Assembly (NCBI GenBank): GCA_001002135.1
Contig: LCLP01000001.1
Coordinates: forward strand, 230,274 to 294,273
From: Candidatus Pacebacteria bacterium GW2011_GWA1_46_10
GTDB lineage: Bacteria; Patescibacteriota; Microgenomatia; UBA1400; PJMF01
Length of the DNA: 64,000 nt
Reading direction: 5' to 3'
Made by a program: the position numbers and the translations under genes. Shown here one piece after another: positions 10,931 through 57,890 of the stretch. The first letter of the stretch is position 1, and every line of letters starts with the position of its first letter. Below the pieces are notes generated by a model. The model saw only the letters and a list, made by a program, of their open reading frames with translations, ran no database searches and was not told where the DNA came from.

Positions 10931-10958
10931 TGGTCTGATAGTTCCCACCAAAATTTCA

Positions 10959-10990
10959 CTTGCCAATTTCATTTTCGGTTGTTACGCTTC
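10959..10990 (+). repeat. Conserved 5' leader element, copy 1 (cttgccaatttcattttcggttgttacg)
   Basis: About 30 bp nearly identical to 43748..43779. Looser similarity continues into the N-terminal coding region of the paralogous gene. Confidence 0.6.
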
Positions 10991-11019
10991 ATGTTAAGGC
11001 CGTCAGTGACACTATTAGT

Positions 11020-11421
11020 ATGATTACCAAACAAGATTCTCTCCAACTGCAAAAAGACTTTAAAAAAGTTTTTGTTACGAAAGCGGAAATGAATGCCCGA
11101 TTCGACAAGATGGACGTGCGATTTGACAAAATAGATACCCGTCTCGATAAGATGGACGCGCGGTTTGATAAAATTAACGCTCGGTTTGACAAGATGGATA
11201 AGGATAACGAGGAACAAACCCTGAGTTTAGCTCAGACGTTTAATCAAATAAATGACAGATTTATCGCCATTGAGAAGAGATTGGATATGATTGAAGAGAT
11301 TTTGCGAAGAATGGATGACCGGCAAAGCAAGATGGAGGAGTTTATGAAAGTCATGTCGCTTAAACTCCTCAATCATGATGGTCGGATTGTCACTCTGGAA
11401 TCAAAAATCCTCTTGAGTTAG
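11020..11421 (+). CDS. Small coiled-coil protein with five tandem heptad repeats (RFDKMDx); paralog of the 43809..44192 gene
   Basis: ATG at 11020 gives MITKQDSLQLQ, shared with the paralog. Repeat block RFDKMDVRFDKIDTRLDKMDARFDKINARFDKMDK. Confidence 0.55.
   Translation: MITKQDSLQLQKDFKKVFVTKAEMNARFDKMDVRFDKIDTRLDKMDARFDKINARFDKMDKDNEEQTLSLAQTFNQINDRFIAIEKRLDMIEEILRRMDDRQSKMEEFMKVMSLKLLNHDGRIVTLESKILLS
11098..11202 (+). repeat. Five tandem imperfect 21-bp repeats inside the coiled-coil gene
   Basis: The units read cgattcgacaagatggacgtg, cgatttgacaaaatagatacc, cgtctcgataagatggacgcg, cggtttgataaaattaacgct and cggtttgacaagatggataag. Confidence 0.8.
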
Positions 11422-11439: not shown

Positions 11440-11514
11440 TCCCCTGTAGCTCAATGGCAGAGCAGGTCGCTGTTAACGACAAGGTTGGCGGTTCGAGTCC
11501 ACCCGGGGGAGCCA
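11440..11514 (+). tRNA. tRNA-Asn (anticodon GTT), CCA encoded
   Basis: Cloverleaf is recoverable: acceptor tcccctg/cggggga, D arm gctc-aatggca-gagc, anticodon loop cTGTTaa, T loop ttcgagt. There is one mismatch each in the anticodon and T stems. Confidence 0.75.
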
Positions 11515-15900: not shown

Positions 15901-16409
15901 TGTCTTTCAGCATTACTTTTATCTTGTCCTGTAAAAGGATTTTTCAGCTCTACTGTAGCTACAGGAAGTCCATTCAGAAAGAGCACTAAGTCAACTGCTA
16001 AATCTGGATTCTTGACACTAAAATGAACTTGGCGAGTTACGCTCAGGATGTTTTTTTGGTACAACTCAAGTGTTTCAGGGTTGAGATACGACTCAGGCTT
16101 GAAGTAAGCAAGATCTAGGTGAATACCATGATCATCAATACCTTCACGAAGCACTTTGAGCATACCCTTTTTCTCTAGCTCACGCACTAATCTAGAAATG
16201 ATTTTGTCTTCAAGCTGATCCTGATGAATATCAGAGAGCATTTGCCATTTTTCTGGCTGGGTATCGCATAGGAATGAGAGTAGGGTGGTTGTATCAAGAG
16301 CAAGTTGTGGGTCGAAATTATTAGCATTGCCTTGAACATATTCAGATTGGTTGATTAAGCTATCGACGATATTTGATTCGAATGTTTCTTCGTTATAAAT
16401 GTTGCTCAT
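12957..16409 (-). CDS. hsdR: Type I restriction enzyme R subunit fused to a C-terminal AlbA_2/Schlafen-like domain
   Basis: Helicase motif I QHSAGSGKS and DEAH box IIDEAHSS. The C-terminal 200 aa have AlbA_2 hallmarks: LEFKSTL, AGYMNAEGGQLIIGVEDGG and PVYVKSQGSEELYVRTGNNTSSLS. Confidence 0.8.
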   Translation of the reverse strand: MSNIYNEETFESNIVDSLINQSEYVQGNANNFDPQLALDTTTLLSFLCDTQPEKWQMLSDIHQDQLEDKIISRLVRELEKKGMLKVLREGIDDHGIHLDLAYFKPESYLNPETLELYQKNILSVTRQVHFSVKNPDLAVDLVLFLNGLPVATVELKNPFTGQDKSNAERQFIYTRDTNEMLFQFKKRALVHFAVDPNEVSMTTHLKGEDTSFLPFNKGYQNGAGNPPNEQGYKTDYLWKEVWSKDSWMDILQKFIHFEQQEIRVSGKIKTKETIIFPRYHQLDVVRKLTHDTKAKGVGKNYLIQHSAGSGKSNSIAWLAYRLSSLHDDQNEPVFKSVIVVTDRIVLDKQLQDTIYQFDHKQGVVKRIDKDSNQLADALRAGVKIIITTVQKFPFVLDQIGEFQASKYAVIIDEAHSSQGGETAKQMKQVLTANTLEEAENEDTTDDETVEDNIRQSMTARGKQDNLSFYAFTATPKAKTLEVFGVSNVEGKPVPFHLYSMRQAIEEGFILDVLKGYATYKTYFRITKKIEDDPELDKKKANQAIARFLSLHPHNLAQKTEVIAEHFRNITMKKIGGKAKAMVVTSSRLHAYRYYQEFNRYLKEKAYTDIRVLVAFSGALKDPDTDEKVTEPQLNGFGEKELPKKFATDEYRILLVADKYQTGYDEPLLHTMFVDKKLSGVKAVQTLSRLNRTHPGKEDTFILDFVNEPSEILEAFQPYYENTSIDESTDPNHLYDLKNSLIDSKVFWLSEVESFAKVFFSGYQTKADQQKLYVIITPAIDRYKTQEKDKQEDFKKQLTAFIRAYVFLSQVMPFSDSDLEKLYVFGRLLRNALPKDPVERFDLNDEIALQYYKLQKIQEGSITPEKLGTVELATLQDAGTIDYETEDKSILSEIIKILNDKLGTEFTEADKLFIDQIEQDIYNNEALMNQAKVNPKDAFKYPLNEELINILVERMDRNEELVMKFINDPKLRDKLEQYLMPRIYRKLENEDIGKLIKKGESQKLEFKSTLRWDVRQGKTNKDLEKVILKTIAGYMNAEGGQLIIGVEDGGSIFGLEQDYMTLSNGNRDEFENHLVQLVKETMGADRVRYFSTIFEMIEGKDVCLITVLKSDNPVYVKSQGSEELYVRTGNNTSSLSMSEAQSYIESHWQKS

Positions 16410-17761
16410 AGTATTTGATCCTTAATAAATTCTTCTGGGATTGGTTCATCACGAACATCGATTTTTCCAGTAACAGCACTTGAGATGAGTGTTTGGCGGT
16501 ATTCTCGAAGCAGGAGGTTTTGGGATATTAATGTATTTTTCTTGTTTTCAATTTTTTCTACATATCCATCTAGATATTGAGCTATTTTTACTAGCTCTTC
16601 TTCTGAAGGACTTAACAATGGTAGCCATTTTAATTCAGAGAAATTCAAGGTTTGCCTTACACCATTTCCAAGTCCATAAAGCACTTTACCTATATCATAA
16701 GAATGAAGTAGATAGTAATAGTATTGGGAATTAGATAGCTGATTTTTTGGGACAAGCCCAATATATGCTGAGGTTATAATTCCATGTTCTTTTGAAAGTC
16801 CAACTCTCAAACTTTTTTTATCATTTTGAAGGTCAGTTAGTCTTAAAATAATGTATCCCGAAGCTACTACTTGATAGCCCTGAAATGAACTTGGCAGTAA
16901 TCCAAAGTTATTTTCAACATTTCTTTTAATAATTCTTCCATAACTTAATGACAATACATTCTTTTCATTTTGGTTAATATTTTTGGTTTTGTTGTTTGAA
17001 AAGATTGCAAAAAGTGGTTTTATTTCCCAATGCTCAGGAACTTTCCCAATCCACTCAATGCCACTGTCTTTCATTTTGACCGTAGGATCGAGACCTTTAG
17101 TGACTACCTGATTGATGGTGGCTTGTTTTTTTTCTTCAAGGAGCTGGATGAGTTGTTTGTTTTTAGAGATGAGGTTGTCTATGAGGAAGATCTTATAGTT
17201 TAGGTATGAAGCAATTTTCTTCTGCATACTTGTATCGACTGAAATTGGAATGTATAAATTAGAAATAGTGTCTGAATTTAAATTTGCCAGCCCTGTGGTC
17301 GTATTTGAGAATATTTGATACTGCACTCTTGATATTTGTGAATTTAAATACCAATAACCAAATTGGCTGTTCATTTTAGTGTTTGGTCTTATTCTTTGCA
17401 TAAAGTTTGAGTAGCACGTTATTTCAGAGGTAATTCTCTTATCAACTACAGCGGTTTTTCCAATATGTAATTCGCTTCCGCTTGATTTAGTAATAATTAA
17501 ATCACCTATTTCTACTTTACTTTTTCTTATTTCAGCATCTGAGAGATCACGATAAGCAGAATCCTTCAAATTATTCCATTTACCATCGACGGATATTTCT
17601 GTAGACCTTAGTACTCTAGTTCCATTTTCCATGGGATCATTTCCCCATACTCCACCATCATTAGAAGTAATGAGCCACTTGAGTTTGCTTAGATACCAAT
17701 CTTGAGGGATTTCTCCAATCCAAGTTATGCCAGTTTGTTTGTATTTTGAATATGGCTTCAT
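16406..17761 (-). CDS. hsdS: Type I restriction-modification specificity subunit
   Basis: Two-TRD architecture with a central conserved spacer. 4-nt overlaps with both hsdM and hsdR. Confidence 0.75.
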   Translation of the reverse strand: MKPYSKYKQTGITWIGEIPQDWYLSKLKWLITSNDGGVWGNDPMENGTRVLRSTEISVDGKWNNLKDSAYRDLSDAEIRKSKVEIGDLIITKSSGSELHIGKTAVVDKRITSEITCYSNFMQRIRPNTKMNSQFGYWYLNSQISRVQYQIFSNTTTGLANLNSDTISNLYIPISVDTSMQKKIASYLNYKIFLIDNLISKNKQLIQLLEEKKQATINQVVTKGLDPTVKMKDSGIEWIGKVPEHWEIKPLFAIFSNNKTKNINQNEKNVLSLSYGRIIKRNVENNFGLLPSSFQGYQVVASGYIILRLTDLQNDKKSLRVGLSKEHGIITSAYIGLVPKNQLSNSQYYYYLLHSYDIGKVLYGLGNGVRQTLNFSELKWLPLLSPSEEELVKIAQYLDGYVEKIENKKNTLISQNLLLREYRQTLISSAVTGKIDVRDEPIPEEFIKDQIL

Positions 17762-19479
17762 GAGAGTATTTCTTTTAATAACCCATCACTTTCTTTTTCA
17801 AGTTCAAGAATGTCTTTCGTTATTTCCTCGAGTGAACGGAGGGGCTTATATTCATAAAAGTGTTTGGTGAAGTTTATTTCATACCCAACTTTGGTTTGGC
17901 TCTCATCAATCCAGGCATCTGGAACGTGGGGTTTTACCTCACGTTCAAAATACTCATGAATATCCTCTTTGAGTGGCACATTTTCTCTATCTCTCAGGCT
18001 AGTATCAGGCTTGGGGTTACCGCCCTTATCAGTGATTATTTTTCCATTTTTATCTATTTGAGGTCTTTCGATAGCAATCTGATTGTATCCAAAATCTTCA
18101 TTATCAAAAATCTTTGAGAATTTTCCTGACTTGATCTCACCATGCATTTCAACAATCTTGGCTATGTCTTCATCGGCAATTTCATGACGTTTGTTTCCCA
18201 AGCTCTTGCTCATCTTTTTGTAGAAATTAACTGCGTTAATTAGTTGAATTTTGCCTTTTCTTTCATTTGATTTACGATTGGTTAAGATCCAAATGTAGGT
18301 AGAGATTCCAGTGTTGTAAAAAAGTTGATCGGGAAGAGCAATGATCGCTTCTAAAAGGTCGTTTTCAATGATCCATTTACGAATGTCAGATGGACCACTT
18401 CCAGCACTTCCAGTAAACAGAGGTGAGCCGTTGAAGACGATTGATAATCTGCTCCCGCCATTAGACGGCTTCATCTTCGCAAGCATGGTTTGAAGGAATA
18501 AAAGAGAGCCATCGCTGATGCTTGGTAAGCCTGCTCCAAAACGTCCGCCATAACCAAGATCTTCATGTTCGGAAACAACTTCTTTTTGAGCTTTATTCCA
18601 CTTCACTCCAAAGGGAGGGTTGGAGAGCATATAGTCGAACTGTACATTAGATAGTTTATCATCACGCAGGGTATCTCCAAAACGGATATGCTCTGCATTG
18701 TGACCAGTAACCATCATGTCTGATTTACAAATAGCATAAGACTCGGGATTAATTTCTTGCCCGAATAATTCAAGCCGTGCATCTGGGTTTAACTCTTGGA
18801 GGTAATCTTCTGCAACGGTTAACATACCACCAGTTCCACAAGCTGGGTCGTAGATTGTTTTGACAATACTTTTCTTAGATAGAATTTCATTATCGTTTGT
18901 GAAAAGTAGGTTAACCATTAAACGAATGACTTCTCTTGGGGTAAAGTGTTCTCCTGCCGTCTCATTTGAGGATTCGGCGAACTTCCGAATTAACTCTTCA
19001 AAGATGTATCCCATTTCCAAATTAGTAACTTTTTTTGGGTTAAGATCAATTTCTTGGAATTTTTTAACTACTTGATAGAGCAAATCTGCCTTATCGAGCT
19101 TGATAATTTGTTTATCAAACTCAAAGTTTTCTATGATATCTCTAGCATCCTTTGAAAAACCATTTAGATAGTTGCGAAGATTTGGGGCGATATTGCTTGG
19201 GTCAGCAATTAGTTTATTGAAATCAAATTGACTATGATTGTGAAACTTTCTGCCTGCAATCTTGTTCAATAGAATATCTGGATCATCAATCTGTTTGTCC
19301 TTGATAGACCCGTACTGTTTTAGAACTATTTCTTTTGTATCCTCCAAGTCACAGTCAAGTCTACGAAGCACAGTAAGTGGCAAAATAACTTTGCCATAAT
19401 CTGATTGCTTATAATCACCACGGAGCAGATCAGCCACGCTCCAGATAAAGTTTGCGTATTGTGAGATATTAAGTTTCAT
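17758..19479 (-). CDS. hsdM: Type I restriction-modification N6-adenine DNA methyltransferase subunit
   Basis: HsdM N-terminal domain (NFIWSVADLLRGDYKQSDYGKVILPLTVLRRL) and catalytic motif LSNPPFG. Confidence 0.85.
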   Translation of the reverse strand: MKLNISQYANFIWSVADLLRGDYKQSDYGKVILPLTVLRRLDCDLEDTKEIVLKQYGSIKDKQIDDPDILLNKIAGRKFHNHSQFDFNKLIADPSNIAPNLRNYLNGFSKDARDIIENFEFDKQIIKLDKADLLYQVVKKFQEIDLNPKKVTNLEMGYIFEELIRKFAESSNETAGEHFTPREVIRLMVNLLFTNDNEILSKKSIVKTIYDPACGTGGMLTVAEDYLQELNPDARLELFGQEINPESYAICKSDMMVTGHNAEHIRFGDTLRDDKLSNVQFDYMLSNPPFGVKWNKAQKEVVSEHEDLGYGGRFGAGLPSISDGSLLFLQTMLAKMKPSNGGSRLSIVFNGSPLFTGSAGSGPSDIRKWIIENDLLEAIIALPDQLFYNTGISTYIWILTNRKSNERKGKIQLINAVNFYKKMSKSLGNKRHEIADEDIAKIVEMHGEIKSGKFSKIFDNEDFGYNQIAIERPQIDKNGKIITDKGGNPKPDTSLRDRENVPLKEDIHEYFEREVKPHVPDAWIDESQTKVGYEINFTKHFYEYKPLRSLEEITKDILELEKESDGLLKEILS

Positions 19480-41823: not shown

Positions 41824-42432
41824 TTAAATTGTTTTTCTCCTCAAATTTAAACGATATTCGAAATCCTCGGCAAAAAGGATATTATTTATTATTCCATTTG
41901 ACTTTGCCTCTATTAATTCTTTGCCAATATGACCTCTTACGCAAAAAGCGTAAACTTCCTTACCCAGTTCATTGTGAATATATTCGAAAACGTATGCCAG
42001 ATCTCCATCGCCGGAAAATATAATTGCCCTATCATAATTATTAGCTTCTTTGATTAAATCAACAGACATCTCTATATCTAAGTTACATTTCTTGGTAAAC
42101 CCAGTGGCGTAATTATTATCGTGGATGTACTTAACCCGTTTGGAAATAATCTCAAATCCGCTATATTGAGCCTGGGCATGAATTGATTCTGACCAATAGG
42201 TTAAGTGAGTAGATGTGTCTTTTGGGCCATAATCAAGACCGTAATAAAACCGGCGCAGAAACTTTTTACCTGCGGAAAGATGTTTGGTCAGTTGTCCCAA
42301 TTTTCTCACTCCAATTGACCAACCAAGGGACTCTTGCCAACGATCAACATTAGCGAAATCAACAAGCACAATATTTCGTTCTTTTGTTTTTGCCAAGTGA
42401 TTTAGAAGATTGCTAATCTCATGTTTTTTCAT
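41824..42432 (-). CDS. NYN-domain (LabA-like, PIN-fold) protein
   Basis: N-terminal NIVLVDFANV and central IIFSGDGDLAYVFEYI motifs. Confidence 0.55.
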   Translation of the reverse strand: MKKHEISNLLNHLAKTKERNIVLVDFANVDRWQESLGWSIGVRKLGQLTKHLSAGKKFLRRFYYGLDYGPKDTSTHLTYWSESIHAQAQYSGFEIISKRVKYIHDNNYATGFTKKCNLDIEMSVDLIKEANNYDRAIIFSGDGDLAYVFEYIHNELGKEVYAFCVRGHIGKELIEAKSNGIINNILFAEDFEYRLNLRRKTI

Positions 42433-43700: not shown

Positions 43701-43747
43701 CTTTTATTGACTTGAGTAAAACTCTGATTTATCCCTTTTATTTTTCG

Positions 43748-43779
43748 CTTGCCAATTTCATTTTCGGTCGTTACGGTAA
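43748..43779 (+). repeat. Conserved 5' leader element, copy 2
   Basis: cttgccaatttcattttcggtcgttacg is near-identical to 10959..10990. Confidence 0.6.
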
Positions 43780-43808
43780 GTGTTAGTGTCCATGGTGATA
43801 CTAACAAT

Positions 43809-44192
43809 ATGATTACTAAACAAGATTCTCTTCAGCTTCAGTTAGATTTTGGGAAGTTTTTTGCCACTAAACAAGATATCTTTCGTATGCAAAAGCATTT
43901 TGAGCTTGCCTTTGCGACCAAAAAAGATTTTATTGAGCTCAAAAAGGAAAATGTGGGAATAAAAAAAGACCTTCGCGAGATAAAAAGGAGCATTCTTGAA
44001 CTAGAGCAAAAGCTTGACATCTTTACTGCGGAAATAAAAGAAACTATTTACACCGCGCTTGATCAGGTTGTTGGTGTGACCAAGACTATTACTCAAGAGC
44101 ATGCGGCGCTTCACTATCGGGTCAAAGAACATAGTGATCAATTGGCGCTACACGATAAACGTCTTGATAAACTGGAGTCTAAGCCTGTCTAA
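43809..44192 (+). CDS. Small coiled-coil protein, paralog of the 11020..11421 gene
   Basis: Shares the MITKQDSLQLQ N-terminus and upstream leader. The remainder is coiled-coil-like but lacks the heptad repeats. Confidence 0.5.
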   Translation: MITKQDSLQLQLDFGKFFATKQDIFRMQKHFELAFATKKDFIELKKENVGIKKDLREIKRSILELEQKLDIFTAEIKETIYTALDQVVGVTKTITQEHAALHYRVKEHSDQLALHDKRLDKLESKPV

Positions 44193-44213: not shown

Positions 44214-44675
44214 GTGAAAGCGCTGTTATTTGATTTTTCCCGCACCCTTTTATTCCCCAAGGATATGACTGATACTCGCACGCTGAACCAACAGCATCGG
44301 TTCTTCAGCCAGAGCAAGGAGTATCAGCTATTTGATCACTTTGAACTGAACCAGGAACTGCTGGATTTTCTTCACCAAATCAAGGACAAAGTAGCTCTCT
44401 ATATCTTCACTTCTGGTACCATGATCAGCAGCGCCCCAGAATTACAAGCCCACCTCACGGATTTTAAAAAAATCTATTCCGGCACAGAACTCAACTTGGA
44501 TAAACGCGATCCTATGGCCTATACTTGGGTCGCCGCCGACATTGGCCTCCCGCCAGAGGAAATATTATTTGTGGATGATAGTGAGGGAAATGTAGCAGCG
44601 GCAAGAGAGGCAGGGATGCGAGGGATGCATTATAAAAATAATGAGGAAGTGATAAAAAAAGTTAGCAGGATGTAA
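44214..44675 (+). CDS. HAD-like hydrolase with a degenerate motif I
   Basis: GTG start. LLFDFSRT (DxS in place of DxD) and VDDSEGNVAAAREAGM (motif IV). Confidence 0.45.
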   Translation: MKALLFDFSRTLLFPKDMTDTRTLNQQHRFFSQSKEYQLFDHFELNQELLDFLHQIKDKVALYIFTSGTMISSAPELQAHLTDFKKIYSGTELNLDKRDPMAYTWVAADIGLPPEEILFVDDSEGNVAAAREAGMRGMHYKNNEEVIKKVSRM

Positions 44676-46435
44676 TGCAAAAAAGAAATTATAAAGGATC
44701 ATTGCGATTGGATTGGATAAACAAAGGCCTTTCACTTTACTACGAAATTGACGAAAAGGAAGGCAAAGGCGTCCGGCCGGTTTGGGTTTCAAAAAACGAC
44801 ATTCGCGTCGCCGAACCGCGCATTTTGCGTTTTGTGAAAGATTATGGCGACAAGACAAGCGACAATATGCTTATCAAAGGCGATAATCTTTTAGTTTTGC
44901 GAAGTTTAGTTGAGATGTTTAAGGGTAGGCCGAACAAAGAGAAAGTGAAATGCATTTATATCGATCCGCCTTTCAATACGGGAAATGCTTTTAAGTATTA
45001 CGACGACAATTTGCAACACTCTGAGTGGCTTACGATGATGCGAGACAGGTTATGGTTGTTAAAGAAAATTTTACGAAAAGGCGGATTCTTAGCCGTTCAT
45101 ATAAACAATGATGAAATGCCGTATTTAAGAGTGATTCTCGACGAAATTTTTAGTCGCGAGGGTTATGTAACGCAGATTTGTTGGGAAAGATCGCAACGCA
45201 CAGCACTTGGACAAGGTGCGAGTTCCATCAATGATACGGTTGAATATGTTCTCATATACACCAACGACCCGCTGGCAAAATTGAATAAATTACAAAAGTT
45301 TTACGAGATTGAGGAAAGAACAATCCGACAATACAGCAAACGTATTGTATCTTTTGGAAAAAGAAAGATTTTTAAAGAGTCAAAAGACAGCGACGGCAAC
45401 CCGATAACTATTTTTGAACTTGAAGAATTTAAAATCAAAAGCGTGTCTATGCGCGACTTTGAGAAACGCTACGTTGAAATTTACAAAGAATTACTAGACA
45501 ATTTTGATTCTGCTGTTCGTTTGTCAAACCAACAAAAGGAAAGCACTTTTCAACAAAAGGTACTTTCTGATTTTAAGGCAAACAAGACTTACGTCGTTGA
45601 GTACATTCCAAAACGAGGTAAAAATAAGGGCAAGAAAACCGAAGTGTTCTATCACGGAAAAGATGTGGTTCTTTTCCTCAAGAATTACGCAAGGAAGGAA
45701 CAGGGTGTTATCTGGAAGTTAGATGATATGAATAATTTCTGGACACGAAAAGAAATTTCTATGGCTGGCGTTGCCTCCGAGGGCAAGGTTGATTTTAGAA
45801 GGAGCAAAAAGCCGGAAAAACTTATTCAAAGGGTGATTGAACTTTGTAGTGGTGAAAACGATTTTGTTTTTGACTCCTTTGCCGGTTCGGGAACTACAGG
45901 GGCAGTAGCTCATAAAATGAATAGGCGTTGGATAATGGTTGAATTTGGGCGTAACGCAGATGAATTGATAATTCCTCGTATGCAAAGAGTGATAACCGGA
46001 AAAGACCAAACAGGAATAAGCAAGGATGTTAATTGGCAAGGCGGTGGTGGCTTCAAATATTACCAACTCGGCGAGAGCGTGATATACGAACAAGATATGA
46101 ATTGGAAGTTAAAAGCCGAGGAAATGGCTGAAGCCGTATTTTTGCATTTTCAATATCGTCCGACCGATGCGAAATGGCTGGAAAAGGAAAGCATGTATCT
46201 TGGCCGGCACCAATCCGCCCGTTACCATTTCGCCATTTCTTTTGCTTCCAGAGAAATAAAAACATTAACGGCAGACTTATACGAAAAGATCGTTGCAGAA
46301 CTTGAAAGGGAAAAATTTAAACACTTAACAATTTTTACCAATGTTGCCGTTTCTGTGCCGCCGGAATCGCTGAATGATCGCGTTCTAGTAAAAAAGATAC
46401 CGGCGGCAATTTTAAGAGAATATAATTTGCTATGA
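44675..46435 (+). CDS. mod: Type III R-M DNA methyltransferase (Mod), beta-class N6A/N4C MTase
   Basis: Motif IV IYIDPPFNTGNAF precedes motif I FVFDSFAGSGTTG. Confidence 0.8.
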   Translation: MQKRNYKGSLRLDWINKGLSLYYEIDEKEGKGVRPVWVSKNDIRVAEPRILRFVKDYGDKTSDNMLIKGDNLLVLRSLVEMFKGRPNKEKVKCIYIDPPFNTGNAFKYYDDNLQHSEWLTMMRDRLWLLKKILRKGGFLAVHINNDEMPYLRVILDEIFSREGYVTQICWERSQRTALGQGASSINDTVEYVLIYTNDPLAKLNKLQKFYEIEERTIRQYSKRIVSFGKRKIFKESKDSDGNPITIFELEEFKIKSVSMRDFEKRYVEIYKELLDNFDSAVRLSNQQKESTFQQKVLSDFKANKTYVVEYIPKRGKNKGKKTEVFYHGKDVVLFLKNYARKEQGVIWKLDDMNNFWTRKEISMAGVASEGKVDFRRSKKPEKLIQRVIELCSGENDFVFDSFAGSGTTGAVAHKMNRRWIMVEFGRNADELIIPRMQRVITGKDQTGISKDVNWQGGGGFKYYQLGESVIYEQDMNWKLKAEEMAEAVFLHFQYRPTDAKWLEKESMYLGRHQSARYHFAISFASREIKTLTADLYEKIVAELEREKFKHLTIFTNVAVSVPPESLNDRVLVKKIPAAILREYNLL

Positions 46436-49161
46436 GAACAAGACCACAAACATTTTACGATTTGGTAAGCCAAGACCAGCAATACAAAACTGCCGTCGGT
46501 TTGCCATCGCCAAAAACTATTGAGAATTATGATAAGATACAACACTTGCTGAAATTTGCGTTGCGCCCTTATCAAATAGAGGCATTAAATGCGTTTCAGC
46601 TTTTTTGGAAAGATGGTTTTGATAGCCGGAGCTTAAAACAAAAAACACTTCAACAAAGCAGCGACGACAACGGAAAAGTCGTTGAGTGGCACAAAGTCGG
46701 TTTTGAGATGGCGACCGGTTCCGGTAAAACGCTACTAATGGGCGCGACGATCTTGGATTTATACCAACGCGGTTTCAAGGATTTTCTTATTCTTACGCCG
46801 AACACCATTTTATTTGATAAAACAATTGAGAACTTTACGCCGCGCGCGGTAAAAAGCATTTTTGGCGATGGCTGGAATTTAACCTACAATTTGGTTACTG
46901 GAAATTCCTATCGAGATAAGACCTGTAACTACGAAGAAGGGCGCGATATCTCCTTCTATGTTTTCAATATGCAAAAGTTTTACGATAAAGCCGCCTCGTC
47001 AAATCAAAAAGACGGAGAGGACACGATGAAAGGCACGCCGTATGTTCGGCGACCGCTAGAGGAATCTTTGTGGCGAGATAAAAGTGGAAACAACACTATT
47101 TCATTCGTGGAATTTTTGCGGGAACGCCGACCGGTCATTGTTTCAGATGAGGCACATCACTATCAACGAAAGAAAACAACTGAGGCAATTTTTGAGCTTT
47201 TGCCGAGAATTGTTCTTGAATTTACCGCAACATCACTTGAAAAAGGCGGAAGTGAAAGTTTTGGTCAGGATAATTTATATAAATATCCAATGCAGAGATA
47301 CATTGGCGAAGGATATGGCAAAAGAATTTTTGCCGTCGGTTGCGGAACAAGCGACGAGAAAATATCCAATGAAGTAACTGATAGCGACAAGCAAAAATTG
47401 GTATGGGGAATGTTGATTCATCTTCTAAAAACTGAGTCGCTTGCTACCACCAATGCTCCAGTTAAGAAAGCGATGTTGCTCACGAAAGCACGAACAATTA
47501 AACATGCTGACGCTATTGATACCTATCTCAGAAATTGGCCCGATTCAGTTTCGGGCGAGCTTGATGATGTATTAGAACAAGTTAACCGTGAGGGAACAGA
47601 TATTGCGAAAATTGTCCGAAAGAATGTACTAAAGAGTAAGTCAGAATTGATTAACAAATTATCGCGTGTTGCCAAATCGGTTTTTACTATCCATAGCGAG
47701 AATAAAAGTGAGGAGGAGGTATGGACGGATTATCAGTCGCTCGACGATAACAAGGCGGAGATTGTCAATCAGGTTCGCATATTCACTGAGGGGGTTGATT
47801 ACGATAATTTTTATACAATCGTTGTTTTGGGCGATACAGTTGAAAAAGTTGGCCTAGCGGCGGCCCAACTTATTGGGCGCGGCCTTCGTCTTTATAAAGA
47901 GAAGCGTGAGTTTGATATTTTGGGTGACGAACTAAAAGAGCAAAGCGAGATTTTACACATCATTTGCGAGCGAGGCCACCGCTTTGACCAAATCGTCGAG
48001 GAAATCAGACAGAAACTTGCTTTGTCGCAGGCAAGTGTTGAAATACCGACCGAGGAGGAAGATCGCGAGAATAAAGTAAACAGAAAAATTATTGATGACT
48101 ACGAAATTCCGATTTTGCAGATCAAGTCGGTCGCAACTGGAAAAAGTTTTGAGGACACTCTTAAAGATAAGTCATTAAGTATAAAATCATTTATTGATGA
48201 GGTTTGTGGACTTTCAAAAGGTGATAAAGTGTTGAAGCCGGAAGTTTTGGCGATGGTGGATTATGCTGAAATTACAACCGACGAAATTACCTTACAAACA
48301 GATAAACCGGCAACTACTCGCAGGACGATAAACTTATCCAAAAATGAAACGGCGCGTTGGGCTTTGGATTTTATAGAGCAAACAGGCTCATTTATTGGAA
48401 ATAACTCATTTGATACGGCGAAAAAATTGATTGAGAATATTATCAACGCCGGAATACAAGTTGATACTGCCTATGCAGTAGATTATAAGCGCGCACTGAA
48501 AGCTCTAAAGAAAAGCATCATTGAGTTTTACGGAAGTGGAGCGTTTGAGCTTATGTTTGATGGGCAATTCATGTTCCGAAAGAAAAATGTCAAAGAAGTT
48601 TTTGTGGACGGAAAAGTAACTGTGCGAAAACGCAATGGATTGACGCTAAATTTGATTTCTGCCCATCAACCGATGTCCTCTCACTTACAACAAAAAGGAA
48701 TTATTATTGAGGGCTACAATTTTTCTGCTCGGCCATTCGTAAAGTTTGATTCGCCACCAGAAAAATGGGTTGCTGATGCGCTGGAGCATCTTTGTTCGTT
48801 AGACGAAAAGAAGAAAAGCTTTTGGGTTAGGAATGACCCGTTCGAGTATCCTGTTGAGGTTAAACCAGCTCCGTTTTATCCAGACTTTCTTGCGTTCATT
48901 GAAGACAAGTGGATTATTGTTGATGTGAAAGGGAAACATCTTGCGGAAACTAAACAAATTGATGACCGCAAGAAAGCCTTAAAACTTTTGGAAAAAGAAA
49001 GTGGAGTCCAAACTTTTTTTCTAGTCGATAAGGTCATGGAGTCAAGAGGGTTTAATGGAGTTGAAATCACAAACATAAGTGATTTGGAAGGTTTTGATGA
49101 ATTACGTCATCAGGAGTTGGAATTTGAAGAATTAAATAATGGCCAAAATCCCCTTCTTTGA
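46432..49161 (+). CDS. res: Type III restriction enzyme Res subunit (SF2 helicase plus C-terminal PD-(D/E)xK nuclease)
   Basis: Walker A MATGSGKT and DEAH VSDEAHH. C-terminal YPDFLAF...IIVDVKGK. 4-nt overlap with mod. Confidence 0.8.
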   Translation: MRTRPQTFYDLVSQDQQYKTAVGLPSPKTIENYDKIQHLLKFALRPYQIEALNAFQLFWKDGFDSRSLKQKTLQQSSDDNGKVVEWHKVGFEMATGSGKTLLMGATILDLYQRGFKDFLILTPNTILFDKTIENFTPRAVKSIFGDGWNLTYNLVTGNSYRDKTCNYEEGRDISFYVFNMQKFYDKAASSNQKDGEDTMKGTPYVRRPLEESLWRDKSGNNTISFVEFLRERRPVIVSDEAHHYQRKKTTEAIFELLPRIVLEFTATSLEKGGSESFGQDNLYKYPMQRYIGEGYGKRIFAVGCGTSDEKISNEVTDSDKQKLVWGMLIHLLKTESLATTNAPVKKAMLLTKARTIKHADAIDTYLRNWPDSVSGELDDVLEQVNREGTDIAKIVRKNVLKSKSELINKLSRVAKSVFTIHSENKSEEEVWTDYQSLDDNKAEIVNQVRIFTEGVDYDNFYTIVVLGDTVEKVGLAAAQLIGRGLRLYKEKREFDILGDELKEQSEILHIICERGHRFDQIVEEIRQKLALSQASVEIPTEEEDRENKVNRKIIDDYEIPILQIKSVATGKSFEDTLKDKSLSIKSFIDEVCGLSKGDKVLKPEVLAMVDYAEITTDEITLQTDKPATTRRTINLSKNETARWALDFIEQTGSFIGNNSFDTAKKLIENIINAGIQVDTAYAVDYKRALKALKKSIIEFYGSGAFELMFDGQFMFRKKNVKEVFVDGKVTVRKRNGLTLNLISAHQPMSSHLQQKGIIIEGYNFSARPFVKFDSPPEKWVADALEHLCSLDEKKKSFWVRNDPFEYPVEVKPAPFYPDFLAFIEDKWIIVDVKGKHLAETKQIDDRKKALKLLEKESGVQTFFLVDKVMESRGFNGVEITNISDLEGFDELRHQELEFEELNNGQNPLL

Positions 49162-49422
49162 CAACTGAGTCTTAAACTATTGTTTGTGTTGCCTTAACCC
49201 TTCTTTTCTATAGATCCTTATCTCAGTGACAAATTTTAATAAAATCTGGAAAATGTCAATCAAACCGAAAGAGCTTGCCTCCAAGCCATTGTGATGCCGG
49301 TCATGATTATGATTGTTGCTATGAAAGACTTAATGGATATCAATGGTATGACGATTGGGGATGTTATCCTGGTTAGGTTATTTCCTCCCCTTCTTGATCA
49401 AGTTTGATATAATTCCCTTTTT

Positions 49423-49818
49423 ATGAGTAAACAAGAGCAAAGACCAGGTGAGGGAGAGTCGCCGAAGATCGACATTAACCAATATAGTCCCACTAATCCT
49501 AATGAGGTGGTGTGGTTAGACAGTAGTGAGTTTCCTCCCTTGACGATAGCGCAAATTCCGGAAGAAGAGCATGTATTGTGGCGAGATCATATAAACAGCC
49601 ACCAGACCATGATAGTGGTAAACGTCCTCCACAGAGACTTCCCTGACAGCCCCTTTCAGGTGCAAGTGTTTTTTGGGAATGGTTTGAAGGTTTACTTTAT
49701 TATTCGTTTGGAAGTGGAGAACAAAGAAGTCATTCCTTTCGAATTAACCGAACGAATCACCGGCAACACGGTCATCCCGGCCTTGACAGACAAATACGCC
49801 GAGCTATTTGAATGGTAG
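49423..49818 (+). CDS. Hypothetical protein
   Basis: 131-aa ORF. Confidence 0.35.
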   Translation: MSKQEQRPGEGESPKIDINQYSPTNPNEVVWLDSSEFPPLTIAQIPEEEHVLWRDHINSHQTMIVVNVLHRDFPDSPFQVQVFFGNGLKVYFIIRLEVENKEVIPFELTERITGNTVIPALTDKYAELFEW

Positions 49819-49826
49819 CGCGGATC

Positions 49827-49857
49827 TTAACTAGTGCGCCACTTCTCCAGCTTCATC
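49827..49857 (+). repeat. 31-bp direct repeat, copy A (ttaactagtgcgccacttctccagcttcatc); duplicate of the 3' end of the 50241..50717 gene
   Basis: 30 of 31 positions identical to 50241..50271. Confidence 0.8.
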
Positions 49858-49923
49858 CTGATTGACTTCCAATTACATGCATGATGTCAGTTTAATGTTA
49901 GGGTAACTCTTCATGCTGACTGA

Positions 49924-50238
49924 GTGGCAGTTCAAAGACTAAGGCAACTAAGAAAATCACTTAACTTAGTATCAACCGGGAAGTTACCGGGTGGAATGAG
50001 GCAGGGTGTGATTACTTCTTTTTATTTGGGAGTTGTTGATAAAAAAGATCAAAAGTATCTGCAGAGATTAAAAAACACCTCCGAAGAAGTGTTTTCTGGA
50101 GATTCTGGAGGGGCGGGTTTTCCCTCATCTGACATGCTTTCGCAAGTGCCCGGAACATGGTCCCGACTTCCCAGGTCCTCAGAATCTGAACCTAGTTTAA
50201 TCAAGTCACTTAAAAAGTCAAGTGACGCAAAGAGATAG
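49924..50238 (+). CDS. Doubtful ORF between the direct repeats, with a low-complexity product
   Basis: 104-aa ORF but Ser/Lys-rich and non-globular. It could be non-coding. Confidence 0.2.
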   Translation: MAVQRLRQLRKSLNLVSTGKLPGGMRQGVITSFYLGVVDKKDQKYLQRLKNTSEEVFSGDSGGAGFPSSDMLSQVPGTWSRLPRSSESEPSLIKSLKKSSDAKR

Positions 50239-50240
50239 TT

Positions 50241-50271
50241 TTAACTGGTGCGCCACTTCTCCAGCTTCATC
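50241..50271 (+). repeat. 31-bp direct repeat, copy B
   Basis: Covers the stop codon and last 9 codons (MKLEKWRTS*) of the minus-strand membrane gene. Confidence 0.8.
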
Positions 50272-50717
50272 ATGGCCAAACCTTGAACAAAGTCCAAGGC
50301 CAGCGCCAAGACGGCGACCACCACCCAAGAGGTGACCCCCAAACCGAAGATATCCGCGAAGCGGGTGACCAGCCACAGCCCGACAAAGTTGACTACAAAG
50401 TAACCAGCCATCCAGTCCATACTGGACAAAGCCTGGCCGCGGCGATGCTCCCACTCGGTGAAGAACGGAATAGCCAAGGTATTAATCAAGGCCAGCTTAC
50501 CCATGGACAGCCACAACGCCCAAGTCGCGGTCAAAGACATCGTGCCCAACACCAGATATTGGGGGAACCACATTTGAGCCAGATACAAGACGATCACGTT
50601 GGTTATCAGTAACGTCACGTACGAGATGACCAACATCATCCCCGGATTGTGTTCAAATCGAGACATTTTCTTTGCCATAGCCCTCCTTTTATTACTACTC
50701 ATACAAATGTAATACAT
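50241..50717 (-). CDS. Small integral membrane protein
   Basis: Four hydrophobic helices. True start probably internal (MAKKMSRF). Confidence 0.5.
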   Translation of the reverse strand: MYYICMSSNKRRAMAKKMSRFEHNPGMMLVISYVTLLITNVIVLYLAQMWFPQYLVLGTMSLTATWALWLSMGKLALINTLAIPFFTEWEHRRGQALSSMDWMAGYFVVNFVGLWLVTRFADIFGLGVTSWVVVAVLALALDFVQGLAMMKLEKWRTS

Positions 50718-51135: not shown

Positions 51136-51285
51136 TAAACATCAAGAGTGGGAAGGAGGGACTCGGCCCGCTGATCTCCCCGGCAACCTGTGTGCCCCGT
51201 GCAGATAAGGTGCTCCATCCGACCTGAGAGGAAAGATGTCATAATACGTATCCGCCTCTCGATACACCAAATAAAGGAGAGGCAG
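51136..51285 (+). promoter_or_regulatory. SAM-I (S-box) riboswitch with an RBS-sequestering expression platform
   Basis: Aptamer core atcAAGAGtGGgaaGGAGGGActcGGCCCgcTGAtctCCCcGGCAACC ... GGTGCTccatCC ... gAGAGGAAAGATGtc. Downstream, CCTCTC at 51255..51260 is complementary both to the aptamer 3' GAGAGG and to the RBS GGAGAGG at 51276..51282. Confidence 0.85.
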
Positions 51286-52392
51286 ATGCTCACCCCACAT
51301 ATTTTTACTTCCGAATCAGTCTGTGCCGGCCACCCGGATAAGATTTGCGATCAAACTTCTGACGCTATTTTGGACGCCGCGCTGGCGCAAGACCCTCTGA
51401 GCCGCGTGGCCGTCGAGACGCTGGTCACCAAAAATCACATGGTCATTGCCGGTGAAATCACCACCAAAGCCGAGCTGGACATCGAAAAAATCGCCCGTGC
51501 TGAAATTAAACGGTTGGGCTACACCAAACCCGAGTGGGGCTTTTCCGATCAATCTAAAATCGAAGTATTAGTCCACAAACAATCGCCAGAAATCGCCCAA
51601 GGTGTCAATCAAGAAGGCGCTGGTGATCAAGGAATGATGTTCGGCTTTGCTTGCCGGGAGACCCCGGAACTAATGCCGCTGCCGATTATGTTGGCCCACG
51701 CCCTGGTCATGGGTATTGACCGACTGCGGGAGAGTAAAGTGATCCCGTACCTGCGGCCTGATGGTAAATCACAAGTGACCGTGAATTACGAAGACAACCG
51801 GCCGGTGTCAGTCGAGGCCGTAGTGCTGGCTGTGCCGCATGATGAAGAGGTGCAGTTGGAGGAGGTGAAAAAGGATTTGTATGAAAAATTGGTCCAGCCG
51901 GTGCTGATGGGCTATGGCTATGAAGTCTCGCCCGAGAAATTGATCGTCAATGGCACTGGTGTCTGGCACCTGGGCGGACCGGCCTCAGACACCGGGGTGA
52001 CTGGCCGCAAGATTATCGTCGACAGCTATGGGGGTTACGCTCGAGTGGGGGGTGGCTGTTTTAGCGGTAAAGACCCGACGAAAGTGGATCGGTCCGGAGC
52101 CTACGCCGCCCGGTACTTGTCCAAACGAATCGTGGCCGAGGGCCTGGCCGAGCACGCCGAAGTGGCACTGGCCTACGCCATTGGCCAAGCACAACCAGTG
52201 ATGAAAGACGTGGAAACTTTTGGCACCAGGACAAAGAGTCCCAAGGTGATTCGCGACTTTGTTGATGGTTTGCTGGATACATCGGTCAAGGGGATTATCG
52301 AAGGCCTGGAGCTGCGACGCCCGATTTTCAAAGAAACTGCTGTCTATGGTCACTTTGGCCGCGACCGTTTCCCGTGGGAAAAACTGGGCTGA
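51286..52392 (+). CDS. metK: S-adenosylmethionine synthetase
   Basis: MLTPHIFTSESVCAGHPDKICDQ... and GGGAFSGKDPTKVDRS-like blocks. ATG at 51286 follows the riboswitch and RBS. Confidence 0.9.
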   Translation: MLTPHIFTSESVCAGHPDKICDQTSDAILDAALAQDPLSRVAVETLVTKNHMVIAGEITTKAELDIEKIARAEIKRLGYTKPEWGFSDQSKIEVLVHKQSPEIAQGVNQEGAGDQGMMFGFACRETPELMPLPIMLAHALVMGIDRLRESKVIPYLRPDGKSQVTVNYEDNRPVSVEAVVLAVPHDEEVQLEEVKKDLYEKLVQPVLMGYGYEVSPEKLIVNGTGVWHLGGPASDTGVTGRKIIVDSYGGYARVGGGCFSGKDPTKVDRSGAYAARYLSKRIVAEGLAEHAEVALAYAIGQAQPVMKDVETFGTRTKSPKVIRDFVDGLLDTSVKGIIEGLELRRPIFKETAVYGHFGRDRFPWEKLG

Positions 52393-57240: not shown

Positions 57241-57313
57241 GCGCTCGTAGTTTAGTGGATAAAATGTCGGTTTCCGGAACCGAAGACCGTGGGTTCGACT
57301 CCCACCGAGCGCA
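57241..57313 (+). tRNA. tRNA-Arg (anticodon CCG), CCA not encoded
   Basis: Acceptor gcgctcg/cgagcgc, anticodon stem tcggt/accga with loop ttCCGga, T arm gtggg-ttcgact-cccac. Confidence 0.85.
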
Positions 57314-57364
57314 CTTTCAACAGCCAGTTGTTACGGTTATTGTTCAATTGGCTATAATACACTT

Positions 57365-57667
57365 ATGAAAACAGTGAGAGTCCAATTTAGACTACCAGTT
57401 TCTGTGATAAAAGAAGGCAAGAGTTTTGTGGCTTATTCGCCTGCACTTGATTTGTCTTCTGTTGGACAGACTGCCAAACAAGCTCGAGCGAATTTGGTAG
57501 AAGCGGCAGAACTTTTTTTTGAGGAAATCATTGAAAAAGGAACCTTTGAAGAAGTGTTGATTGAACTTGGTTGGCGGAAGGTTGATAAACGTCTGGTTCC
57601 TCCGGAAGTAATTTCTCAACGCATTCAACAATTTTCTGTCCAAGGTCCCGCGGCCTTGTATGCCTAG
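57365..57667 (+). CDS. hicB: HicB-family antitoxin
   Basis: 100 aa. KSFVAYSPALDLSSVGQTAKQARANLVEAAELFFE matches the HicB/UPF0150 fold. Confidence 0.6.
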   Translation: MKTVRVQFRLPVSVIKEGKSFVAYSPALDLSSVGQTAKQARANLVEAAELFFEEIIEKGTFEEVLIELGWRKVDKRLVPPEVISQRIQQFSVQGPAALYA

Positions 57668-57890
57668 AATTACTCCCATACGTTGGCAGAAATTTGAAAA
57701 GTTTCTATTGAGAAGTGGCTGTGCTTTTATCCGTCAAAAAGGTGACCATCGAGTCTATTGGCGAAAAGGCTTGAAGAGACCAATTATTTTGCCTATGTCC
57801 AAGGATTTACCAATTTTTATCATTAGAAATAATTTAAGAACGTTGAGGATTGAGCTGAGTGAGTATCTGAAAATATTACAGCAACTCTAA
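57660..57890 (+). CDS. hicA: HicA-family mRNA interferase toxin
   Basis: 76 aa. FEKFLLRSGCAFIRQKGDHRVYWRK matches the HicA/YcfA pattern. 8-nt overlap with hicB. Confidence 0.6.
   Translation: MPRITPIRWQKFEKFLLRSGCAFIRQKGDHRVYWRKGLKRPIILPMSKDLPIFIIRNNLRTLRIELSEYLKILQQL

What the first reader, a model, noticed from the sequence alone, without database searches (positions are those of the whole stretch)
44214..50271. AT-rich Type III R-M block ending at a 31-bp direct repeat that duplicates the 3' end of a membrane-protein gene
mod and res are visibly AT-richer than the flanking core genes (quinone oxidoreductase, metK). Just downstream, the sequence ttaact(a/g)gtgcgccacttctccagcttcatc occurs twice, 414 bp apart, at 49827..49857 and 50241..50271. 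Copy B is the stop codon and last nine codons of the minus-strand gene 50241..50717. Duplication of a gene 3' end is the footprint of site-specific integration. The 380 bp between the copies contains only a doubtful low-complexity ORF. The repeats may therefore bracket a decayed or miniature element, or mark one end of the R-M island.
Basis: seen in the sequence. Interest (0 to 1): 0.55.

Follow-up and report, generated by a model that had tools for sequence, protein, structure and literature searches.

The report
Tiny repeat-flanked insert carrying a small RNA
The repeat is real, but it does not end the restriction-modification island: it brackets a separate 383-bp insertion at the end of a membrane-protein gene, probably the stump of an integrated mobile element, whose cargo is a small structured RNA gene rather than a protein.

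Summary
49827-49857 and 50241-50271 match at 30 of 31 positions (32/34 if extended), 414 bp apart, with none expected by chance. Copy B is the stop codon plus the last ten codons of a conserved 145-aa membrane-protein gene.

The organism is a groundwater Pacebacteria (CPR) bacterium. A relative from the same aquifer (membrane protein 85% identical) has the empty site. There the membrane gene and a homologue of the 131-aa gene (49423-49818) converge and overlap by 4 nt, and its single sequence aligns to both copies. So the repeat brackets a 383-bp lineage-specific insertion.

The mod-res pair is a separate mobile cassette. Its 76-81% nucleotide identity to cassettes in other phyla stops at 49133, one ancestral gene away from the repeat.

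The insert is not empty. Its minus strand carries a promoter-like site, an 88-nt structured RNA (50187-50100) and a strong terminator. The "doubtful ORF" is a translation of this RNA gene. The RNA resembles the skipping-rope class (26.7 bits against a cut-off of 36.7). I confirmed true members of that class in a phage and in an integrase-bearing phage satellite.

Best reading: a decayed or miniature integrative element (CIME/microCIME-like). No recombinase or parent element was found. This is an ordinary kind of feature with a modestly interesting RNA cargo.

The parts
49827..49857 (.). Repeat copy A (attL-like). This is the displaced original 3' end of the membrane gene (…MKLEKWRTS*, minus-strand sense), 8 bp from the stop codon of the 131-aa gene. 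Weak extension to 49860.
   Evidence: alignment A5 shows the relative's single site aligning here together with the end of the 131-aa gene
50241..50271 (.). Repeat copy B (attR-like). This is the working stop codon and last ten codons of the membrane gene. It differs from copy A at one synonymous position (ACC vs ACT).
49858..50240 (.). 383-bp lineage-specific insert between the copies (GC 0.42). It is absent from all relatives examined.
50100..50187 (-). 88-nt structured small RNA resembling the skipping-rope class. An outer stem encloses three hairpins, with GAGG, AGAUG and CC junction motifs and a proposed loop-loop pairing CGGG:CCCG.
   Evidence: Rfam RF02924 26.7 bits, E 9.6e-5, full model length (18.7 bits in the wider scan). 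Homologues at 77-83% nt identity on unrelated contigs L123-L128. Proposed structure 93% paired against 24-46% for slid controls. Third hairpin covaries with confirmed family members.
50070..50093 (-). Intrinsic-terminator hairpin with a UUCG loop and a U6 tail, directly 3' of the RNA. It also ends the membrane-gene transcript.
   Evidence: sequence AACACUUCUUCGGAGGUGUUUUUU; an equivalent terminator follows the homologues in L123
50194..50221 (-). Promoter-like site TTGACT-16-TAAACT, ending 6 nt upstream of the RNA. Tentative.
   Evidence: the number of such sites in the region is no higher than in shuffles, so this is weak
49924..50238 (+). It is an artefact: its only non-self database match is a translation of the same RNA motif on another contig.
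50241..50678 (-). Target gene: a conserved 145-aa membrane protein with no Pfam family. Its C-terminus MMKLEKWRTS is conserved in homologues.
49423..49818 (+). 131-aa gene of unknown function. It is the ancestral convergent neighbour of the membrane gene and belongs to neither the insert nor the R-M cassette.
   Evidence: homologues abut the membrane gene in L068/L129 (45% identity), L023 (28%) and L038 (26%)
44675..46435 (+). Type III mod. It has DPPF and FxGxG methyltransferase motifs and a variable target-recognition region at 45218-45854. Its start overlaps the stop of the HAD-like gene.
46432..49161 (+). Type III res (helicase domain plus a C-terminal PD…DxK nuclease motif). Together with mod it forms the horizontally shared two-gene cassette.

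Best explanation
Two independent acquisitions lie side by side.

(1) Shown: a 383-bp piece of foreign DNA sits inside the last 31 bp of a conserved membrane-protein gene. The insert brings its own copy of those 31 bp, so the gene keeps its conserved C-terminus. The displaced original end (copy A) stays 8 bp from the stop codon of the ancestral convergent neighbour, the 131-aa gene.

Inferred: this is the attL/attR geometry left by an integrase-type site-specific recombinase whose attP mimics the 3' end of its target gene. The unit has 383 bp and no recombinase, so it is either the stump of a larger element after internal deletion or a miniature element moved in trans. Both correspond to the CIME/microCIME type.

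(2) Shown: the insert's cargo is a small RNA gene on the minus strand. It comprises a promoter-like site, an 88-nt multi-hairpin RNA resembling the skipping-rope class, and a strong intrinsic terminator.

Inferred: the RNA is made either from its own promoter or as the 3' end of the membrane-gene transcript. Its function is unknown, as it is for the whole class.

(3) Shown: mod-res (44675-49161) is a separate, apparently intact two-gene Type III cassette that circulates between phyla. Its boundaries do not touch the repeat.
For: Repeat real and non-random.

Fixed in roughly a dozen assemblies of the same organism.

Empty site: in a relative from the same aquifer (membrane protein 85% identical, four assemblies) the homologue of the 131-aa gene and the membrane gene overlap by 4 nt. 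One 32-nt stretch of the relative aligns to both copy A (with the left flank) and copy B (with the right flank).

No relative duplicates the 3' end.

The two mismatches flank a perfect 24-bp core, as expected when attP and attB differ outside the crossover region.

RNA: 26.7 bits and E 9.6e-5 to RF02924 over the full model. Two tandem homologues, also followed by a terminator, lie on an unrelated contig with a ParA/ribbon-helix-helix module and 17-bp iterons.

This RNA class rides on mobile elements. I confirmed 68-bit members in Streptococcus satellite phage Javan99, which has an integrase at one end and the RNA about 1.1 kb from the other end, and in Enterocloster phage CB473P3. PMC8501573 lists the class among phage ncRNAs.

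Cassette limits: nucleotide homology to cassettes in Omnitrophica and other contigs runs only from 44681 to 49133. Res is 75-89% identical across phyla. Elsewhere the cassette sits beside integrase, HTH_17 or DUF5659 genes.

Gene-free, att-flanked microCIMEs of 130-220 bp at gene 3' ends are documented (PMC7563491).
Against: No tyrosine recombinase was found in the ORFs of the 64-kb window that I scanned (most ORFs of 150 aa or more between 5 and 60 kb). The only recombinase seen is a large serine recombinase at 11473-12972, a type that does not leave long direct repeats.

No larger element using the same site turned up in 18 relatives. No matching attP or insert sequence was found in viral collections, phages or plasmids.

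No excision product or population polymorphism could be examined; all assemblies carry the insert.

A direct repeat alone does not prove a recombinase.

The RNA scores below Rfam's cut-off, its middle 44 nt do not align to the model, and one of the two tandem homologues gets no hit. Covariation rests on 3-5 sequences.

The promoter call is no better than chance.
Confidence: 0.55

Rival explanations
1. The insertion is real but was not made by an integrase. Foreign DNA was captured by illegitimate or homology-facilitated recombination or by break repair. The 31-bp duplicate is then a fill-in of staggered ends, or a scrap of donor DNA from a close relative.
For: No recombinase, parent element or attP was found. 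There is only one occurrence, so site specificity is unproven. The relatives show that the region downstream of this gene is highly variable without any repeats.
Against: The duplicate covers the stop codon plus the last ten codons and so keeps the gene intact, which is typical of attP mimicry. The mismatches flank a perfect 24-bp core. Target duplications as long as 31 bp are not typical of transposition or repair (my own knowledge). The cargo RNA class is documented on integrase-bearing elements.
Confidence: 0.25
2. The arrangement with the insert is ancestral, and the relatives lost it by recombination between the two copies.
For: Deletion between direct repeats leaves exactly the single-copy state seen in L068/L129.
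Against: It would require independent precise losses, or one very early loss, across all 18 relatives spanning 46-85% protein identity. None of them retains any trace of the 383 bp or the RNA. This reading still implies a repeat-bounded unit that can be excised.
Confidence: 0.1
3. One reading: the repeat marks one end of the Type III R-M island. Copy A would be the remnant of the target site at the island's right end.
For: Copy A lies 666 bp beyond res. The 131-aa gene diverges much faster than the membrane gene (45% against 85% identity in L068), so it could in principle have arrived with the island. The gene upstream of the 131-aa homologue in the relative is not res.
Against: No partner repeat lies left of the block. 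Cassette homology ends at 49133. Homologues of the 131-aa gene abut the membrane gene in three lineages without R-M. The two copies are 414 bp apart, not 6 kb.
Confidence: 0.05
4. The repeat is a chance match, an assembly artefact or a dispersed repeat family.
For: None beyond its short length.
Against: 0 expected by chance. The arrangement is identical in roughly a dozen assemblies from several projects. A degenerate core pattern scanned over the metagenome collection hit only the ends of homologous genes, plus chance matches unrelated to the gene.
Confidence: 0.01

Closest known systems
CIMEs and microCIMEs: decayed integrative elements that keep their att sites, described at the 3' ends of rpmG, rpsI, fda and rplL in Streptococcus (PMC7563491)
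   Same: Flanked by direct repeats, one of which is the 3' end of an intact target gene. No integrase, relaxase or other mobility gene. Size is in the microCIME-to-small-CIME range.
   Different: It is found alone, not in tandem with an active element. No parent element or cognate integrase is known. The host is a CPR bacterium. The cargo is an RNA gene rather than nothing (microCIME) or protein genes (CIME).
skipping-rope RNA motif, Rfam RF02924 (Weinberg et al. 2017, PMC5737381)
   Same: An outer stem encloses hairpins. GAGG follows the outer stem. The 3' half AGAUG-nnGGA…CCGCCC-nn-CC is shared, and its stem covaries. An intrinsic terminator follows directly. It is carried on mobile DNA. Function is unknown.
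   Different: It scores 26.7 bits against a cut-off of 36.7. The central region (44 nt against about 33) does not align. The first hairpin is longer with a large loop. No shared neighbouring protein was detected. CPR is, to my knowledge, not among the phyla reported for the class.
Type III restriction-modification systems of the EcoP15I/EcoP1I type (mod-res operon)
   Same: Gene order mod then res with overlapping stop and start. Mod has the beta-class motif order with a variable target-recognition region. Res has helicase motifs and a C-terminal PD…DxK nuclease motif.
   Different: Nothing unusual. It is translationally coupled to an upstream HAD-like gene, and no flanking repeats or recombinase mark how it entered.
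Integrative elements that target the 3' end of protein-coding genes, such as ICESt1/ICESt3 at fda (my own knowledge and PMC7563491)
   Same: The direct repeat duplicates the gene's 3' end and preserves the reading frame.
   Different: Those elements are tens of kilobases long and encode their integrase. Only 383 bp remain here.

Membership tests
CIME/microCIME (decayed integrative element) | Flanked by att-type direct repeats, one lying in the 3' end of an intact target gene | tested here: met
   30/31 repeat; copy B is the stop codon plus the last ten codons; the gene's C-terminus is conserved
CIME/microCIME (decayed integrative element) | Devoid of recombination and transfer genes | tested here: met
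   383 bp; the only ORF longer than 51 aa is a translation of the RNA gene; no Pfam hit
CIME/microCIME (decayed integrative element) | Derived from, or mobilised by, an ICE, IME or prophage that uses the same att site | tested here: inconclusive
   No such element in 18 relatives, viral contigs, phages or plasmids. The complete host genome was not available.
CIME/microCIME (decayed integrative element) | Absent from the same site in related genomes (insertion polymorphism) | tested here: met
   Empty site in L068 and L129-L132
CIME/microCIME (decayed integrative element) | Excision or circular form | not testable with these tools
   No read-level data
skipping-rope RNA (RF02924) | Covariance-model score at or above the gathering cut-off of 36.7 bits | tested here: not met
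   Window 26.7 bits (18.7 bits in the wider scan). L123 copy a 22.7 bits. L123 copy b no hit. Confirmed members score 68 bits.
skipping-rope RNA (RF02924) | Architecture and junction motifs (outer stem, GAGG, hairpins, AGAUG, third hairpin, CC) | tested here: inconclusive
   The outer stem, GAGG, AGAUG, third hairpin and CC align over the full model, and the third hairpin covaries with confirmed members. The central hairpins do not align.
skipping-rope RNA (RF02924) | Followed directly by a Rho-independent terminator (PMC5737381) | tested here: met
   50093-50070 in the window; equivalent hairpin plus U-run in L123 and Javan99
skipping-rope RNA (RF02924) | Association with one particular protein family encoded nearby (PMC5737381, supplementary text) | tested here: inconclusive
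   The supplementary text is not held, so the family's identity is unknown to me. No protein is shared among the window, L123, Javan99 and CB473P3 neighbourhoods.
Type III restriction-modification system | Mod: N6/N4 methyltransferase of the Type III kind | tested here: met
   PADLOC MTase_III E 6.8e-98; Pfam PF01555 E 9.7e-35
Type III restriction-modification system | Res: ResIII helicase domain plus nuclease, encoded directly after mod | tested here: met
   Pfam PF04851 E 2.1e-22; PADLOC REase_III E 7.1e-16; 4-nt overlap between mod and res; PD…DVK motif read from the translation
   Both copies lie to the right of the island, 414 bp apart. There is no third copy in the window.

The most novel reading that the evidence does not exclude
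The 383-bp unit may not be debris. It could be an intact miniature element, moved in trans by a recombinase encoded elsewhere, whose only payload is a skipping-rope-class RNA with its own promoter and terminator. That would be the smallest known context for this orphan RNA class and, to my knowledge, the first in CPR bacteria. It would show that the RNA can persist without a partner protein encoded beside it, and would tie the class to the upkeep or benefit of integrative elements. A direct guide role in recombination was looked for and not supported: complementarity between the RNA and the repeats is no greater than chance.
Probability: 0.1. Interest if true: 0.65.

Novelty: new member of a known kind. 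Interest (0 to 1): 0.35.

Why it matters
For annotation, it separates two events that look like one island and replaces a spurious 104-aa ORF call with an RNA gene.

For biology, it gives a clean before-and-after pair (empty and occupied site in co-occurring relatives) for insertion at a gene's 3' end in a CPR bacterium. Mobile elements and their recombinases are poorly charted in that group.

It also extends a skipping-rope-like RNA, a class flagged in 2017 as structurally sophisticated but of unknown function, to a new lineage and to a minimal, protein-free context. Confirmed members of the class were found here in a phage and in an integrase-bearing phage satellite, which adds to the case that the class belongs to mobile elements.

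None of this overturns current understanding.

Tried and rejected
- Looked for the same 3'-end duplication in 16 relatives from encoding-contig look-ups and a genome scan: none.
- Scanned the metagenome collection with a degenerate core pattern: 78 loci, of which only three hold the gene. One is the same organism; two are relatives without the duplication.
- Searched viral contigs for the repeat core, a degenerate core, two interior 24-26-mers, the RNA core and an RNA-derived peptide: all empty. BLAST of the insert against phages and plasmids: no match.
- Tested whether the 383 bp is a decayed copy of genes that occupy this slot in relatives (L038 pA, L083 74-aa and 137-aa genes) or of L123 proteins: no similarity.
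- Tested whether the 104-aa ORF is real: its only distant hit is a translation of the RNA motif.
- Folded the whole spacer: z -1.9 on the minus strand and +0.3 on the plus strand. Only the RNA and terminator hairpins stand out.
- Built covariance model R1 and searched the window and 22 loci: only the three training copies were found, plus one weak hit inside a gene that is probably chance.
- Looked for guide-like complementarity between the RNA and the repeats: not above shuffles.
- Looked for a shared partner protein near the RNA in four contexts: none.
- Considered the large serine recombinase at 11473-12972 as the agent. Rejected, because that enzyme family does not leave long direct repeats (my own knowledge) and no tRNA-end duplicate accompanies it.
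- Looked for repeats flanking mod-res: none.
- The supplementary text of PMC5737381, which names the associated protein family, is not held.
Full report
**1. The observation**

The sequence at 49827-49860 recurs at 50241-50274 with 32 of 34 matches, 414 bp apart. The perfect 24-nt core occurs exactly twice in the window even with three mismatches allowed, and shuffles give none.

Copy B is the stop codon and last ten codons of the minus-strand gene. Its real start is most likely 50678 (145 aa, preceded by GGAGG), which matches the database protein exactly. The C-terminus MMKLEKWRTS is conserved among homologues.

About 20 loci, drawn from roughly a dozen assemblies of the same organism (NCBI, ENA, JGI and Logan; mostly groundwater), carry both copies at the same spacing. 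They are 99.8-100% identical to the window over up to 20 kb, with no differences in the insert. The repeat is therefore not an assembly artefact. The organism is a Candidatus Pacebacteria (CPR) bacterium of the GW2011_GWB1_47_8 type.

**2. What the repeat brackets**

Relatives whose membrane protein is 46-85% identical never duplicate the gene's end. In them a convergent gene lies next to the membrane gene: it starts 11-26 bp beyond the stop in three relatives and overlaps the stop by 4 nt in two.

The 131-aa gene at 49423-49818 has homologues in exactly that position:
- L068/L129, 45% identity, with a 4-nt overlap of the two genes;
- L023, 28% identity, with a 22-bp gap;
- L038, 26% identity, with one extra gene between.

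L068/L129 comes from the same aquifer, and the arrangement appears in four assemblies. Its single 32-nt stretch aligns on the left with the end of the 131-aa gene plus copy A, and on the right with copy B plus the body of the membrane gene. That is an empty site.

The window therefore carries a 383-bp insertion inside the last 31 bp of the membrane gene. Copy A is the displaced original end, 8 bp from the stop of the 131-aa gene.

**3. The R-M block is a separate event**

Mod and Res are clear Type III proteins. Res homologues are 75-89% identical in bins labelled Omnitrophica, Sedimentisphaerales, Vogelbacteria, Pacebacteria and Parcubacteria. That is as high as, or higher than, the identity of the host's own membrane protein to its nearest relative.

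Nucleotide homology of 76-81% to four such cassettes runs only from 44681 to 49133, with a gap at the Mod target-recognition region 45218-45854. The flanking genes differ in every case. They include an integrase with HTH_17 (L121), HTH_17, DUF5659 and PDDEXK genes (L133), a T5orf172 gene (L119), and an IS element inserted in mod (L117).

The mobile unit is therefore mod plus res alone. Its right edge is about 670 bp and one ancestral gene away from copy A, and no repeat flanks it. In L083 a homologue of the quinone oxidoreductase (44% identity) lies about 700 bp from the membrane gene. This suggests, weakly, that everything from 43.7 to 49.2 kb is extra in the window lineage.

The GC contrast is real (0.40 against 0.51-0.55) but is only about one standard deviation below the window mean.

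**4. What the insert contains**

The 104-aa ORF has a single non-self match: an 83-aa 'protein' on six short contigs. At the DNA level this is a 95-nt element, 77-83% identical to window 50101-50195. It is present twice in tandem in an intergenic region beside a ParA gene, a ribbon-helix-helix gene and 17-bp iterons. The ORF is thus an artefact of translating a conserved non-coding element.

On the minus strand the element folds as an outer stem enclosing three hairpins. On the three copies 93% of cells pair, against 24-46% when partners are slid, and two pairs change on both sides. By inspection, a loop-loop pairing also covaries: CGGG:CCCG in two copies and CGGAC:GUCCG in the third.

A strong terminator follows directly, both in the window (50093-50070) and in L123. 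A TTGACT-16-TAAACT site ends 6 nt before the RNA, but that call is weak.

**5. Relation to the skipping-rope class**

Rfam's best match for the window RNA and for one L123 copy is skipping-rope (RF02924), over the full model length. The window scores 18.7 bits in a 427-nt scan and 26.7 bits (E 9.6e-5) in a 105-nt scan. L123 copy a scores 22.7 bits. All are below the cut-off of 36.7, and L123 copy b gets no hit.

The aligned parts are the outer stem, GAGG, AGAUG, the third hairpin with its CCGCCC loop-stem, and CC. The central 44 nt do not align.

[quoted passage not shown] They did not detect self-cleavage in experiments on it, consider it an improbable riboswitch, note that it is associated with a nearby protein family, and leave its function unknown (PMC5737381).

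Using the Rfam consensus as a BLAST probe, I found and then confirmed 68-bit members in two places:
- Streptococcus satellite phage Javan99, which has its integrase at 1-1164 and the RNA at 8001-8078 of 9145 bp;
- Enterocloster phage CB473P3.

PMC8501573 also lists the motif among phage ncRNAs. Aligned together, the new RNAs and the confirmed members share AGAUGnnGGA…CCGCCCnnCC, and the stem covaries (96% paired, two pairs changed on both sides).

I therefore call the window RNA skipping-rope-like. It is probably a divergent relative, but it is not a certified member.

**6. Mechanism**

Shown:
- an insertion bounded by a 31-bp repeat that restores the target gene's end;
- two mismatches that flank a perfect 24-bp core;
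- an RNA cargo of a class that travels on integrase-bearing elements.

Inferred: integration by a site-specific recombinase whose attP mimics the gene's 3' end, followed by loss of nearly all of the element, or mobilisation in trans of a miniature element. The closest described category is the CIME/microCIME: att-flanked, gene-poor or gene-free relics of 130 bp to 13 kb at the 3' ends of genes (PMC7563491).

Against this reading, no cognate recombinase, parent element or attP was found. The only recombinase seen in the window is a large serine recombinase, which is the wrong type. An origin by illegitimate recombination cannot be excluded. I give the integrase-relic reading about 0.55, non-integrase capture 0.25, ancestral presence with loss in relatives 0.10, and the R-M-boundary reading 0.05.

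**7. Verdict**

The feature is a new example of known kinds: an att-flanked relic, and a horizontally moving Type III cassette. It has one modestly interesting addition, a skipping-rope-like RNA gene in a CPR bacterium in a minimal, protein-free context. Interest 0.35.

Noticed in passing
window 51136-51242 (+): A SAM riboswitch (S-box, RF00162) lies directly upstream of metK. It aligns over the full model at 42.3 bits, just under the 44.4-bit cut-off (E 5.2e-7). The long ORF call 51190-52392 overlaps it; the real metK start is about 51286.
   Followed up: partly
window 11440-19479: A second defence island. tRNA-Asn (11440-11514) is overlapped at its 3' half by the end of a convergent large serine recombinase gene (11473-12972, Resolvase + Recombinase + Zn_ribbon). 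A Type I R-M block follows (ORFs 12957-16409, 16406-17761 with Methylase_S, and 17758-19479). GC is 0.38. No duplicate of the tRNA 3' end was found in the window.
   Followed up: partly
window 10917-11082 and 43706-43871: A 166-nt direct repeat (71% identity) covers the upstream region and first ~25 codons (MITKQDSLQLQ…) of two paralogous small coiled-coil genes, 10960-11421 and 43749-44192. Each lies immediately upstream of one of the two R-M-containing blocks. The significance is unknown.
   Followed up: partly
L123 1531-1721 (-), also L124-L128: Two tandem copies of the skipping-rope-like RNA, followed by a terminator, lie between a 303-aa gene of unknown function and a ParA gene plus a ribbon-helix-helix gene. 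17-bp iterons (TTGTACGCTCGAACTGT, ×4-5) are nearby. The locus looks like a plasmid or other partitioned replicon, but its taxonomy is unresolved.
   Followed up: partly
loci L021, L023, L025, L038, L083 against window 43.7-50.2 kb: The DNA downstream of the membrane gene's stop differs in every relative (CHASE-domain gene, Na/Ca exchanger, small gene families, oxidoreductase). The far upstream side (DsbD, Zip, LytR, enolase) stays syntenic. The gene's 3' end therefore borders a recurrent hotspot of gene turnover, without repeats in the other lineages.
   Followed up: partly
window 45218-45854: The central region of Mod has no nucleotide homology to otherwise 72-81% identical cassettes. This is the expected swap of the target-recognition domain, implying a different recognition sequence.
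   Followed up: no
window 44214-44675: The HAD-like gene lacks the second Asp of the usual DxD motif (FDFSRTL). Its stop overlaps the mod start by 1 nt, so the acquired cassette appears to be translationally coupled to a host gene.
   Followed up: no
window 57241-57890: tRNA-Arg (57241-57314) is followed by a probable HicB/HicA toxin-antitoxin pair (57365-57667 and 57660-57890). The HicA_toxin Pfam hit is on the identical locus L002.
   Followed up: no
window 41824-42432 (-): A NYN-domain nuclease gene (also a weak PADLOC NYN hit) sits in the most AT-rich stretch near the finding (GC 0.36). It may be another acquired defence-type gene.
   Followed up: no
L134 (Javan99) 7856-7958 and 8001-8078: In the Streptococcus satellite phage, the confirmed skipping-rope RNA lies directly after another annotated sRNA (SpF41, 115.8 bits) and before a HigB/HigA-like gene pair near the integrase-distal end.
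   Followed up: no
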